Of a stretch of DNA of 64,000 nucleotides, positions 30,501 to 33,500 are shown in pieces. Each line of letters begins with the position of its first letter. Positions within the stretch are counted from its first letter, which is position 1. The DNA is taken from the NCBI RefSeq assembly GCF_054482595.1, contig NZ_CM137008.1. One strand, written 5' to 3'. A program made the position numbers.

Positions 30501-33500
30501 CAACAATACCTTTGAAAACGAAGTTTATCGCGCGACCGGACAAACACTGGCTTTAAGTGCCATCCCCAGATTACTTTGGCTGGCGCACCATCGTTCCGAT
30601 ATTTACCGTCAGGCATCAACCATCACCATGATCAGCGACTGGCTGGCCTATATGCTCAGCGGCGAACTTGCGGTGGATCCCTCTAACGCTGGCACCACGG
30701 GACTTCTTGATCTAACCACCCGTGACTGGAAACCTGCATTGCTGGATATGGCTGGCCTGCGTGCCGATATTCTTTCTCCTGTCAAAGAAACCGGCACATT
30801 GCTGGGTGTGGTGAGTTCACAAGCGGCGGAACTCTGCGGTCTGAAGGCGGGCACTCCGGTGGTCGTTGGAGGAGGTGACGTGCAGCTTGGTTGCCTGGGG
30901 TTAGGCGTTGTGCGTCCGGCACAAACCGCTGTTCTTGGCGGCACATTCTGGCAGCAAGTTGTAAACTTAGCCGCGCCGGTGACCGATCCAGAAATGAACG
31001 TGCGCGTTAATCCCCATGTTATTCCTGGCATGGTACAAGCTGAATCTATAAGCTTTTTTACCGGACTCACCATGCGCTGGTTCCGCGATGCTTTCTGTGC
31101 CGAAGAAAAACTGATTGCCGAACGTCTAGGCATCGACACCTATACGCTGTTGGAAGAGATGGCCAGCCGGGTGCCGCCTGGGTCGTGGGGCGTAATGCCG
31201 ATATTCTCCGACAGAATGCGCTTTAAAACCTGGTATCACGCTGCGCCTTCCTTTATTAACTTGTCCATTGACCCGGATAAATGTAACAAAGCGACATTGT
31301 TCCGTGCGCTGGAAGAAAATGCGGCGATTGTATCAGCGTGTAACTTGCAGCAAATTGCTGATTTCTCGAATATTCATCCTTCATCGTTAGTCTTTGCAGG
31401 CGGAGGTTCAAAAGGGAAATTATGGAGTCAAATTCTCGCTGATGTCTCGGGATTACCCGTCAATATTCCGGTGGTCAAAGAAGCCACTGCATTAGGATGT
31501 GCCATTGCAGCTGGCGTCGGTGCCGGAATTTTTTCATCAATGGCAGAAACCGGAGAACGCCTGGTTCGCTGGGAACGGACGCACACACCAGACCCGGAAA
31601 AGCATGAACTTTATCAGGATTCACGCGATAAGTGGCAGGCAGTTTATCAGGATCAGCTGGGGCTGGTTGATCATGGACTGACGACGTCGTTATGGAAAGC
31701 GCCTGGGTTATAGTTTCATTGACAGCCACATCATGATGACCGTGGCTGTTAGTTTTTGAGTATAGTTATTCTTATTTCCCTTCTTTTAGAACTGGCTTGT
31801 TAAATGCCAGCTTGCAGATTCATCCTTCCATCACCAGTAATATATTCAAGGGGAAATTGCTATTTTTCTTAAAGCATTAAGCATAATGCTTATTTTATAA
31901 CGAATATTCCTAAAGACACTAATGGATGCAAAAGGGGTTTAATAAACTTCGATTTTTAGCAATTAGTGCTATTCTTTGTTAAATATGATGATGATAATTT
32001 TCCTATTGAAAGAAACAGTTTTCTTATTAATCAACAATAACTCATAGTTCATTTTTAAATAAAATAAGAACTATGCATTTTTTAATCTATCAATTCGAAA
32101 GTATTAGCAAATTAGCCAAATTGACACCTTCCCACCTCCAACTAACACTCAATACAGACCTCTGACAATTTAATAAGTTTCATTTTTAATGTCTGACGAC
32201 TCATCTCTTTCGTGGCTGTATTGTTTGTATATGGAGCGTTTATATGAATAGAATCTATCGCGTGATATGGAATTGCACTCTACAGGTATTTCAGGCCTGC
32301 TCGGAATTAACTCGCAGGGCAGGTAAAACATCGACGGTTAATTTGCGTAAATCCTCTGGACTGACAACGAAATTCAGTAGATTGACGCTGGGTGTTTTGC
32401 TGGCACTAAGCGGTTCAGCGTCTGGTGCAAGTCTGGAAGTTGATAATGATCAGATTACCAATATTGATACTGATGTTGCTTATGATGCCTACCTGGTTGG
32501 CTGGTATGGCACTGGAGTGCTTAATATTTTGGCTGGCGGTAATGCCTCCTTAACCACTATTACTACCAGCGTCATTGGCGCTAATGAGGACTCAGAGGGC
32601 ACCGTTAATGTTTTGGGTGGCACCTGGCGATTGTATGATAGCGGAAATAATGCAAGGCCTTTAAATGTGGGTCAATCCGGAACGGGGACGCTGAATATTA
32701 AACAGAATGGTCACGTTGATGGAGGCTATTTAAGACTAGGTTCCTCGACAGGAGGCGTCGGGACGGTCAATGTTGAGGGAGAGGACTCTGTTCTGACGAC
32801 CGAATTATTCGAAATAGGGAGTTACGGTACGGGCTCATTAAATATTACGGATAAGGGTTACGTCACGAGTTCAATAGTCGCCATTTTAGGCTATCAGGCG
32901 GGCAGTAATGGCCAGGTTGTCGTTGAAAAGGGCGGTGAGTGGCTAATAAAAAATAACGATTCCTCAATTGAATTTCAAATTGGTAATCAAGGAACTGGGG
33001 AAGCGACTATTCGCGAGGGTGGACTGATTACGGCTGAAAACACGATTATCGGTGGCAATGCTACCGGTATCGGAACCCTGAATGTGCAGGATCAAGACTC
33101 TGTCATCACGGTACGCAGACTCTATAATGGATATTTCGGTAATGGCACACTCAATATTTCCAATAATGGACTAATTAATAACAAAGAATATTCATTAGTG
33201 GGCGTTCAGGACGGTTCCCACGGTGTCGTCAACGTGACCGATAAAGGGCATTGGAATTTCCTCGGAACGGGCGAAGCTTTCCGCTATATCTATATCGGTG
33301 ATGCTGGCGACGGTGAACTTAATGTCTCGCGTGAAGGTAAAGTAGATTCGGGAATTATCACTGCGGGGATGAAAGAAACAGGCACAGGCAACATTACTGT
33401 TAAGGATAAGAACTCCGTTATCACTAATCTCGGAACTAATCTTGGTTATGACGGCCACGGCGAAATGAATATCAGTAATGAAGGGCTTGTTGTCAGCAAC

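What the first reader, a model, noticed from the sequence alone, without database searches (positions are those of the whole stretch)
31758..32243. Very AT-rich ~490 bp region upstream of the autotransporter gene
The sequence between the lsrK terminator and the yneO start is conspicuously AT-rich, with A/T runs and no ORF. This is the signature of H-NS-silenced promoter regions of horizontally acquired adhesin genes; it may contain curved-DNA nucleation sites that keep yneO silent.
Basis: inference. Interest (0 to 1): 0.3.

Follow-up and report, generated by a model that had tools for sequence, protein, structure and literature searches.

The report
H-NS-bound AT-rich promoter region of yneO
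This AT-rich gap is the already catalogued, H-NS-bound control region ("promoter island") of a decayed E. coli adhesin gene; it also carries a known high-affinity MarA binding site, so it is real but largely ordinary and already described.

Summary
Window 31758-32243 is 30.0% G+C (window mean 46.9%), the deepest trough in the 64 kb, with no ORF of 60 aa or more. It lies between the lsrK terminator hairpin and the start of yneO (ydeK/ydeU), a frameshifted ECSE_1600-family autotransporter in E. coli.

- The spacer is one of 78 "promoter islands".
- It is flagged as H-NS-bound in all ChIP data sets compiled.
- It binds H-NS and sigma70 and sigmaS holoenzymes in genomic SELEX.

Two parts of the idea were not supported. 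I found no strong intrinsic curvature and no high-affinity H-NS motif.

- A consensus marbox at 31955-31969 (minus strand) is the published MarA ChIP-seq and in vitro site.
- The right-hand 386 bp (31858-32243) travels with the gene. It precedes orthologues at two other chromosomal sites in other genera.
- Those orthologues keep the marbox, a TTGACA-N17-RACACT promoter and the leader.
- The AT-rich spacer between marbox and promoter is 151-152 bp in all three lineages. In Pseudocitrobacter its sequence is unrelated.
- IS1 repeatedly hits this region in other strains.

Novelty: already known. Interest is low. The distal conserved marbox is the only open question.

The parts
31718..31757 (+). 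Intrinsic terminator of lsrRK: hairpin 31718-31753 plus U-run
   Evidence: Fold -17.4 kcal/mol, z = -4.2. Invariant in 8 E. coli strains.
31758..31857 (.). Part of the spacer specific to the lsrK context; not shared with orthologous loci in other genera; contains a weak hairpin at about 31792-31810
   Evidence: Homology to L015 starts only at about 31858. The hairpin is not better than shuffles, z = -0.63. E. coli strains carry indels here.
31858..32243 (+). Regulatory module that travels with the autotransporter gene: AT-rich tract, marbox, core promoter and leader
   Evidence: Alignable to the region upstream of the orthologue in metagenome scaffold L015, which lies next to a paoABC-like operon only 72% identical to E. 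coli's. Its marbox-to-ATG part is also recognisable in Pseudocitrobacter vendiensis downstream of bluF-bluR.
31814..32158 (.). Published 'promoter island' 1596197_345 (ydeK/lsrK), reported as H-NS-bound in all ChIP data sets
   Evidence: Panyukov & Ozoline 2013, Table 1. Mapped with the K-12 coordinates and a +1975 offset between U00096.2 and U00096.3, which is my own knowledge. My sigma70 PWM hit density here is at the 99.7th percentile of the window.
31953..31972 (-). Marbox (MarA/SoxS/Rob site) ATAGCACTAATTGCTAAAAA; core 31955-31969; reverse orientation relative to yneO
   Evidence: Exact match to the MarA ChIP-seq site gcactaattgctaaa upstream of yneO in ETEC H10407, with in vitro binding '+++'. 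Its position agrees: 283 bp against 282 bp from the ATG. It is the only zero-mismatch core marbox in the 64 kb. It is invariant in 8 of the E. coli strains compared and conserved in two other genera.
31970..32120 (.). 151-bp AT-rich spacer (G+C 21%) between marbox and -35; the presumed H-NS platform
   Evidence: Length is 151, 151 and 152 bp in three lineages. The Pseudocitrobacter sequence is not detectably similar. No indels in 8 E. coli strains. One gull isolate carries a 21-bp tandem duplication here.
32111..32129 (.). Single local peak of predicted curvature (AAATT-N5-AAATT) just upstream of and overlapping the -35
   Evidence: 18.6 degrees per turn, above the window's 99th percentile. 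It is one of 47 such peaks in the window, and 11% of shuffles reach it.
32121..32149 (+). Candidate core promoter TTGACA-N17-AACACT (predicted start near 32156), followed by the conserved block CAAnACAGAC
   Evidence: Best sigma70 PWM score in the spacer. The hexamers and the 17-bp spacing are conserved in Pseudocitrobacter and L015, although the 17-bp spacer sequence differs. No transcription start data were available.
32162..32190 (+). Promoter proposed in the literature, CTGACA-N17-TTTAAT
   Evidence: Best-match promoter assigned to the RpoD holoenzyme SELEX peak by Shimada 2014. Invariant in E. coli but not conserved in Pseudocitrobacter or L015. An IS1 sits at its -10 element in strain RM14721.
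32202..32243 (+). Highly conserved leader with Shine-Dalgarno GGAG (32233-32236)
   Evidence: 100% identical in L015 and 3 differences in Pseudocitrobacter, although the proteins are only 78-82% identical. Not structured, z = +1.4.
32244..37665 (+). yneO (ydeK/ydeU), ECSE_1600-family autotransporter; a pseudogene split by a frameshift near 36270-36308
   Evidence: RefSeq annotation 'frameshifted'. ORFs 32244-36308 and 36337-37665. ESPR and PATR in the first ORF; autochaperone, pertactin and beta-barrel domains in the second. G-runs lie at the break.

Best explanation
The tract is the transcriptional control region of the cryptic autotransporter (adhesin-type) gene yneO. It belongs to a known class: long, very AT-rich 'promoter islands' upstream of horizontally acquired genes. 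These offer RNA polymerase many promoter-like sites but are coated by the nucleoid protein H-NS and give little productive transcription.

Anatomy, from left to right:
- the lsrRK terminator;
- about 100 bp of context-specific DNA;
- a 386-bp module that moves with the gene.

The module consists of a high-affinity marbox at its distal part, a 151-bp spacer of 21% G+C, a core promoter (most likely TTGACA-N17-AACACT, with the start near 32156), and a conserved, unstructured leader with a strong ribosome-binding site.

Proposed working: H-NS polymerises along the AT-rich spacer and over the core promoter and keeps yneO off. MarA, or its paralogues SoxS and Rob, binds the distal marbox. It is too far from the promoter for classical class I or class II activation. 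If it acts at all, it most plausibly does so by disturbing or bounding the H-NS filament.

Shown: Published for the orthologous locus: H-NS, RNA polymerase and MarA binding. Inferred: silencing of yneO itself, the choice of core promoter, and any regulatory effect of the marbox.
For: - Composition and boundaries.
- Locus identity.
- Published H-NS occupancy in all compiled ChIP data sets, and promoter-island status.
- H-NS and RpoD holoenzyme binding in SELEX. RpoS holoenzyme SELEX peak in the same spacer.
- Density of promoter-like sites at the 99.7th percentile of the window.
- MarA ChIP-seq peak and in vitro binding at the identical 15-mer. Only perfect core marbox in the 64 kb.
- Gene is an autotransporter.
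- Non-syntenic orthologues keep an AT-rich upstream region with the marbox, TTGACA-N17-RACACT and the leader conserved.
- Patchy distribution: the spacer is found in 78% of E. coli genomes, and a search of one representative genome for each of 100,044 species found only one true non-E. coli orthologue.
Against: - I could retrieve no expression data showing yneO derepression in an hns mutant.
- H-NS occupancy is taken from a secondary compilation and from SELEX. The primary ChIP tables were not available.
- No high-affinity H-NS motif and no curvature beyond composition-matched shuffles.
- The strict sigma70 consensus scan found 0 sites where 2.9 were expected. The -10 element of my preferred promoter matches only 3 of 6 positions, and it differs from the published prediction.
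- The marbox lies about 194 bp (or about 235 bp) upstream of the candidate starts. This is outside the class I window (-56 to -85) and the class II window (-36 to -55).
- The gene is a pseudogene here, so the region may have no present function.
- The spacer length is not immutable: one strain has +21 bp.
Confidence: 0.8

Rival explanations
1. It is first of all a stress-inducible promoter of the mar/sox/rob regulon. MarA, SoxS or Rob at the marbox switches on an unrecognised promoter close to the marbox (long leader) or the distal core promoter. AT-richness and H-NS binding are secondary.
For: MarA binds here in vivo and in vitro with the highest affinity class. The marbox recognition elements are conserved across three genera while the central 5 nt and the flanks diverge. 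The orientation is reverse, as in class I promoters. It is the only perfect core marbox in the window.
Against: No conserved -10/-35 pair lies at class I distance downstream of the marbox in the three lineages; this rests on my reading. The distance to both candidate core promoters is far outside the class I and class II windows. No report of MarA-dependent yneO expression was found. The 2025 MarA screen excluded sites more than 200 bp from a start codon.
Confidence: 0.25
2. It is a relic. Because yneO is dead in this strain and in many others, the spacer is decaying non-functional DNA. Its AT-richness reflects mutational bias, and H-NS, RNA polymerase and MarA binding are incidental consequences of composition.
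For: yneO is frameshifted or truncated in every complete E. coli genome whose annotation I inspected. IS1 insertions and deletions recur in the spacer and the 5' end of the gene. Promoter-like hits scale with AT content.
Against: Conservation is strongly patterned. The marbox, the -35 and -10 hexamers with fixed spacing, and a leader 100% identical to a lineage whose flanking genes are 72% identical are all kept, against unalignable spacer DNA. The Pseudocitrobacter orthologue is an intact ORF listed at 1832 aa. E. coli variants of about 1060-1220 aa keep both the signal peptide and the beta-barrel domain.
Confidence: 0.12
3. The gap hides an unannotated small RNA or small protein gene.
For: The spacer is long (530 bp). 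A 30-aa ORF lies at 32073-32165. An 11-codon GTG-initiated ORF at 32212-32247 overlaps the yneO ATG; its three Pseudocitrobacter differences are two synonymous changes and one Val to Ile (my reading).
Against: No Rfam match better than E = 0.3, and all matches are far below gathering scores. No terminator-like site inside the spacer. The 30-aa ORF lies in sequence not conserved outside E. coli. The 11-codon ORF has no Shine-Dalgarno sequence, and three substitutions carry no statistical weight.
Confidence: 0.03

Closest known systems
Promoter islands of E. coli (Panyukov & Ozoline 2013; PMC3661553)
   Same: The K-12 orthologue of this spacer is itself entry 1596197_345 (ydeK/lsrK) of the 78 islands. 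It is over 300 bp, very AT-rich, dense in promoter-like sites, bound by RNA polymerase and H-NS, and sits next to a gene predicted to be foreign.
   Different: Nothing differs in kind. The published table does not mention the marbox, the conserved core promoter, or the fact that the island moves with the gene.
H-NS xenogeneic silencing of cryptic adhesin loci (autotransporters, chaperone-usher fimbriae) in E. coli K-12
   Same: A low-G+C upstream region of a surface-adhesin-type gene with patchy distribution, with H-NS occupancy reported. The table of islands also lists the upstream regions of the autotransporter genes ycgV and yfaL.
   Different: Derepression in hns mutants is not documented for yneO in anything I could read. 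No high-affinity H-NS motif or marked curvature was found. The gene is a pseudogene here.
mar/sox/rob regulon promoters (class I and class II marbox promoters)
   Same: A consensus marbox (13 of 14 specified positions of AYnGCACnnWnnRYYAAAYn; consensus from my own knowledge), with MarA binding in vivo and in vitro. Reverse orientation, as in class I.
   Different: The marbox centre is about 194 bp upstream of the conserved core promoter's predicted start, and 282 bp from the ATG. This is far outside the class I and class II windows. No MarA-dependent transcription is known.
AraC/XylS-family counter-silencers of H-NS, such as Rns/CfaD, VirF and ToxT (own knowledge, not tested here)
   Same: An AraC-family monomer site at the distal edge of an H-NS-bound AT-rich tract upstream of a surface-structure gene.
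   Different: MarA, SoxS and Rob are not established as H-NS antagonists at this locus. This is an analogy only.

Membership tests
H-NS-bound (xenogeneically silenced) regulatory region | G+C far below the genome or neighbourhood mean over several hundred bp | tested here: met
   30.0% against 46.9% for the window; 0.06% of windows are as low.
H-NS-bound (xenogeneically silenced) regulatory region | H-NS occupancy in vivo and in vitro at the locus | tested here: met
   By literature look-up for the K-12 orthologue, which is 97.5% identical. It is marked 'A' (all ChIP studies) in Panyukov & Ozoline Table 1 and has the HNS mark in genomic SELEX. The primary ChIP tables could not be read.
H-NS-bound (xenogeneically silenced) regulatory region | Derepression of the downstream gene when hns is deleted | not testable with these tools
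   No expression data for yneO/ydeK in hns mutants were found in four full-text searches.
H-NS-bound (xenogeneically silenced) regulatory region | High-affinity nucleation motif (TCGATAAATT-like) | tested here: not met
   No match with one mismatch or fewer in the spacer. There are two overlapping two-mismatch matches at 32084-32095. This motif is not obligatory for H-NS binding.
H-NS-bound (xenogeneically silenced) regulatory region | Intrinsic DNA curvature or phased A-tracts | tested here: inconclusive
   Mean curvature 6.7 against 5.7 degrees per turn; 28% of shuffles reach the mean and 11% reach the maximum. There is one local peak at 32111-32129 and no A-tract phasing. The wedge parameters were recalled from memory.
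H-NS-bound (xenogeneically silenced) regulatory region | Association with horizontally acquired DNA | tested here: met
   Three lineages have three different upstream neighbours: lsrK, bluR, and a paoA-like gene. The spacer is absent from 22% of E. coli genomes. The species-representative search found one true non-E. coli orthologue.
Promoter island (Panyukov & Ozoline) | At least 300 bp with an extreme density of predicted transcription start points | tested here: met
   Listed as 1596197_345. An independent sigma70 PWM gives 52 hits in 345 bp against 15.8 +/- 9.4, the 99.7th percentile. The strict consensus scan gave 0.
Promoter island (Panyukov & Ozoline) | RNA polymerase binding with little productive transcription | not testable with these tools
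   RpoD and RpoS holoenzyme SELEX peaks lie in the spacer. Low transcription is stated for the islands as a class, not for this one individually.
mar/sox/rob regulon promoter | Marbox matching the consensus and bound by MarA | tested here: met
   GCACTAATTGCTAAA at 31955-31969 (-) has zero mismatches to GCACnnWnnRYYAAA. The identical site is a MarA ChIP-seq peak with '+++' binding in vitro.
mar/sox/rob regulon promoter | Marbox position and orientation: class I is reverse at -56 to -85; class II is forward at -36 to -55 | tested here: not met
   The orientation is reverse, but the centre is about -194 from the conserved candidate start and about -235 from the published candidate. No conserved promoter lies at class I distance. 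Transcription starts are predicted, not measured.
mar/sox/rob regulon promoter | Transcription changes with MarA, SoxS or Rob | not tested
   No data found.
Rho-independent terminator (lsrRK) | G+C-rich hairpin followed by a U-run directly after the stop codon | tested here: met
   31718-31753 plus UUUU; -17.4 kcal/mol, z = -4.2.

The most novel reading that the evidence does not exclude
The marbox is a functional distal element of a portable regulatory cassette. A MarA-family monomer (perhaps constitutive Rob) bound about 160 bp upstream of the -35 hexamer sets the boundary of, or loosens, an H-NS filament on a spacer. On this reading, selection acts on the spacer's AT-richness and its length or helical phase (151, 151, 152 and 172 bp), not on its sequence. 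That would be a mode of action for MarA, SoxS or Rob outside the class I and class II scheme, linking the antibiotic and oxidative stress regulon to expression of a cryptic adhesin.
Probability: 0.2. Interest if true: 0.5.

Novelty: already known. Interest (0 to 1): 0.2.

Why it matters
As flagged, this is a textbook case, and the orthologous K-12 spacer is already in the literature as an H-NS-bound promoter island, a SELEX target and a MarA ChIP-seq target.

The modest added value is comparative. The control region behaves as a cassette that moves with the gene. Its only conserved distal element is a high-affinity marbox, kept at a nearly constant distance across unrelated spacer sequence. 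If that site is functional, it would give a concrete, easily testable example of a MarA-family protein acting at long range on an H-NS-coated promoter.

Tried and rejected
- **Rfam** over 31000-33000 at E up to 10: only noise such as snoRNA and lncRNA fragments. No known RNA.
- **Strict sigma70 and terminator scans**: 0 sites. The published promoter has T at -10 position 2, so it probably fails that scan's A-at-position-2 rule, and the terminator hairpin probably fails the loop-size rule. I therefore used my own PWM and folding.
- **H-NS 10-mer motif**: no good match.
- **Curvature model and A-tract phasing**: not above shuffles.
- **CpxR box**, looked for because ydeK appears at 2.2-fold in a CpxR-regulon table: nothing convincing in the spacer. 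One one-mismatch site lies inside the coding region at 32337-32351.
- **Second marbox-like arm** at 31917-31932, which forms an imperfect inverted repeat with the marbox: its spacing does not fit the consensus and it varies among strains. Rejected.
- **Promoter at class I or class II distance from the marbox**, on either strand: none is conserved.
- **Metagenome scan** for the non-E. coli promoter variant: 0 hits.
- **Further divergent proteins**: P0045, P0052, P0082, P0086, P0096, P0123 and P0126 all turned out to be E. coli alleles or deletion variants.
- **Hits in the 'plasmids' collection**: these are mislabelled chromosomes.
- **Supplement of Kahramanoglou 2011**: not held.
- **Strictly fixed spacer length**: weakened by a 21-bp duplication in one strain.
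Full report
**What is there**

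The window is E. coli chromosome. The queried stretch is 100% identical to strain XH990 and 97.5% identical to K-12 MG1655. The window matches XH990 exactly from about 14 to 39.8 kb. RefSeq annotation gives, on the + strand:
- lsrR at 29089-30042;
- lsrK at 30121-31713;
- a frameshifted 'ECSE_1600 family autotransporter' at 32244-37665, which is yneO (formerly ydeK and ydeU) in K-12;
- then hipBA.

Pfam finds the ESPR signal peptide and a passenger repeat in the first reading frame. It finds the autochaperone, pertactin and beta-barrel domains in the second. The break lies among G-runs near 36270-36308.

**Check of the observation**

- 31758-32243 is 30.0% G+C. The whole 530-bp spacer is 30.9% and the core 31800-32120 is 26.8%.
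- For comparison, the window is 46.9% and lsrK is 52.3%.
- Only 0.06% of 486-bp windows are as low, and this is the deepest trough in the 64 kb.
- A/T runs are frequent, and TpA steps are enriched at 9.6% against 5.8%.
- No ORF of 60 aa or more is present.
- The left boundary is a good intrinsic terminator: hairpin 31718-31753 plus a U-run, -17.4 kcal/mol, z = -4.2.
- The right boundary is an ATG preceded by GGAG.
- Judged against other intergenic spacers, the region is the extreme of a continuum rather than an outlier. It is the lowest and longest of 11 spacers of 200 bp or more. However, pqqL/gadB, ydeO/ydeN and ydeQ/ydeP are 31.6-32.7%, and the mean spacer is 37.7%.

**What is already published for this exact spacer**

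1. Panyukov & Ozoline 2013 list 'ydeK(-)/lsrK(-) 1596197_345' among 78 'promoter islands'. They mark it as H-NS-bound according to all the ChIP studies they compiled, and as associated with a gene predicted to be foreign. Using the K-12 coordinates and the 1975-bp offset between genome versions (my own knowledge), the island maps to window 31814-32158.
2. Shimada 2014 report an RpoD holoenzyme SELEX peak in the yneO/lsrK spacer. They assign CTGACA-17-TTTAAT as the best-match promoter (window 32162-32167 and 32185-32190) and flag an H-NS SELEX site.
3. Shimada 2017 list an RpoS holoenzyme peak in the same spacer.
4. Sharma 2017 (Grainger laboratory) report a MarA ChIP-seq peak upstream of yneO in ETEC H10407, with site gcactaattgctaaa and the strongest class of in vitro binding. 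That 15-mer is present unchanged at window 31955-31969 on the minus strand, the same distance from the start codon as in ETEC.

- A wedge-model curvature calculation (parameters recalled from memory) gives the spacer a mean only slightly above the window: 6.7 against 5.7 degrees per turn.
- That mean is no higher than composition-matched shuffles (28% of shuffles reach it).
- It shows one local peak at 32111-32129, of a size that occurs 47 times in the window.
- A-tracts are not phased.
- The TCGATAAATT high-affinity H-NS motif has no match with one mismatch or fewer.

H-NS binding here is thus best attributed to plain AT-richness and TpA content, not to a recognisable nucleation site.

My sigma70 weight-matrix scan puts the island at the 99.7th percentile of promoter-like density. 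This is consistent with its 'promoter island' label, although the strict consensus scan found none.

**Comparison with related loci**

Within E. coli:
- The spacer is present in 4226 of 5426 complete genomes.
- An alignment of eight diverse strains shows substitutions and small indels concentrated in 31750-31950.
- That alignment also shows a 41-bp invariant block around the marbox, no indels between the marbox and the promoter, and an almost invariant right-hand 160 bp.

Outside E. coli:
- A search of one representative genome for each of 100,044 species found one true non-E. coli orthologue. The other three hits are likely E. coli-derived contigs or short fragments in assemblies labelled as unrelated taxa.
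- That orthologue is in Pseudocitrobacter vendiensis (82% identity). The gene is an intact ORF, listed at 1832 aa.
- There it lies downstream of bluF-bluR, not lsrK.
- A second foreign lineage (78% identity) is on a metagenome scaffold. The gene is divergent from a paoABC-like operon that is only 72% identical to E. coli's.

This non-syntenic, patchy distribution supports horizontal acquisition. In both foreign lineages the upstream region is again AT-rich.

Homology with E. coli begins at window position about 31858 in the metagenome lineage. In Pseudocitrobacter it begins exactly at the marbox, which abuts the bluR terminator.

Three blocks are conserved in all three lineages:
- the marbox recognition elements TTTAGC-N5-GTGC, whose central 5 nt differ in Pseudocitrobacter;
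- TTGACA-N17-(A/G)ACACT followed by CAAnACAGAC;
- the leader with its ribosome-binding site, which is 100% identical in the metagenome lineage.

The published CTGACA-17-TTTAAT promoter is not conserved in either foreign lineage. For that reason I favour TTGACA (32121-32126) and AACACT (32144-32149) as the core promoter. This rests on conservation only; no transcription start data were available.

**The marbox**

- It is the only zero-mismatch core marbox in the 64 kb. The mar operon's own site at 10798-10812, which has one mismatch, serves as a positive control.
- It points away from yneO, the reverse orientation used by class I promoters.
- It is centred about 194 bp upstream of the predicted start. 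This is far outside the class I (-56 to -85) and class II (-36 to -55) windows used by the Grainger laboratory, whose 2025 screen also discarded sites more than 200 bp from a start codon.
- I found no conserved promoter at class I distance.
- The distance from the marbox to the -35 hexamer is 151, 151 and 152 bp in the three lineages. Yet the Pseudocitrobacter spacer shows no detectable similarity to the others (global alignment z = 0.2 and 1.1), while staying at 28% G+C.
- That hints at selection on the length and composition of the spacer rather than on its sequence.
- The sample is tiny, however, and one gull E. coli isolate carries a 21-bp tandem duplication in the spacer. It also has a GCAC to GCAT change, which reproduces the strongly bound ybjC marbox.

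I therefore treat a long-range role for MarA, SoxS or Rob, such as counter-silencing or bounding of the H-NS filament, as a possibility with about 20% probability, not a finding.

**Verdict**

The finding is already known in substance: a promoter island, an H-NS target and a MarA target. The curved-DNA detail is not supported. 'Silencing' of yneO itself remains inferred, and the gene is dead in this strain. The only element that might repay an experiment is the conserved distal marbox.

Noticed in passing
window 9628-10926: The marRAB operon and marC lie in the same window, about 22 kb from the yneO marbox. The operon's own marbox CCACGTTTTGCTAAA is at 10798-10812.
   Followed up: partly
L008 3489-5233; L009 3037-3806; L006 1107-1152; hit H6: IS1 copies are inserted in or next to this spacer and the 5' end of yneO in several unrelated E. 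coli strains. In RM14721 the insertion is exactly at the -10 element of the published promoter. In E2528-C1 an IS1 follows lsrK directly, and the spacer and the 5' end of the gene are missing.
   Followed up: partly
L021 3785-7193; L022 3826-7460: E. coli variants in which a deletion joins the lsr transporter genes directly to the middle of yneO, removing lsrR, lsrK, the spacer and the 5' end of the gene. One such protein (P0126) is indexed in 111 blocks of the assembly collection. These variants probably account for some of the genomes that lack the spacer.
   Followed up: no
window 32244-37665 and proteins P0001-P0029: yneO is extremely polymorphic in length. Many E. coli alleles of about 1060-1220 aa keep both the ESPR signal peptide and the beta-barrel, as in-frame passenger deletions; P0003 is on 103 contigs. 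The alleles of this window and of K-12 are split by a frameshift among G-runs near 36270-36308.
   Followed up: no
window 32212-32247: An 11-codon ORF, GTG..TGA (VAVLFVYGAFI), has a stop that overlaps the yneO ATG (ATATGA). It is identical in L015. The three differences in Pseudocitrobacter are two synonymous changes and one Val to Ile. It has no Shine-Dalgarno sequence, so it is probably chance, but the leader is more conserved than the protein.
   Followed up: no
window 47236-47568, 50294-50366, 51129-51529, 61647-62007: Other very AT-rich spacers lie in the same window: ydeQ/ydeP 32.7%, safA/ydeO 19%, ydeO/ydeN 31.9% and pqqL/gadB 31.6%. The ydeO/safA and gadB/pqqL spacers are also in the published promoter-island table.
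   Followed up: no
window about 13000 and 39800-44000: The window is not XH990 throughout. There is a 1-bp offset before about 13-14 kb, in or near the frameshifted yneK. There is also a structural difference in the fimbrial region after hipA, with offsets of +878 and then -458.
   Followed up: no
window 32337-32351: A CpxR-box-like sequence, GTTAATTTGCGTAAA (one mismatch to GTAAA-N5-GTAAA), lies 93 bp inside the yneO coding region. ydeK is listed at 2.2-fold in the CpxR-regulon tables of Bury-Mone 2009.
   Followed up: partly
L025 (E. coli 64A:C, gull) aligned to window 31984-32010: A 21-bp tandem duplication (TTTTTCTTATTGAAAGAAACA) lies inside the AT-rich spacer, and the marbox carries GCAC to GCAT. 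The record is a 4.9-Mb chromosome filed as a plasmid in PLSDB.
   Followed up: partly
L011, L013, L014: E. coli-like yneO sequence (90-98% identical) appears in assemblies labelled Candidatus Nanosynbacter (MAG), Marinomonas sp. and Limosilactobacillus vaginalis. This is most likely contamination or mis-binning.
   Followed up: no
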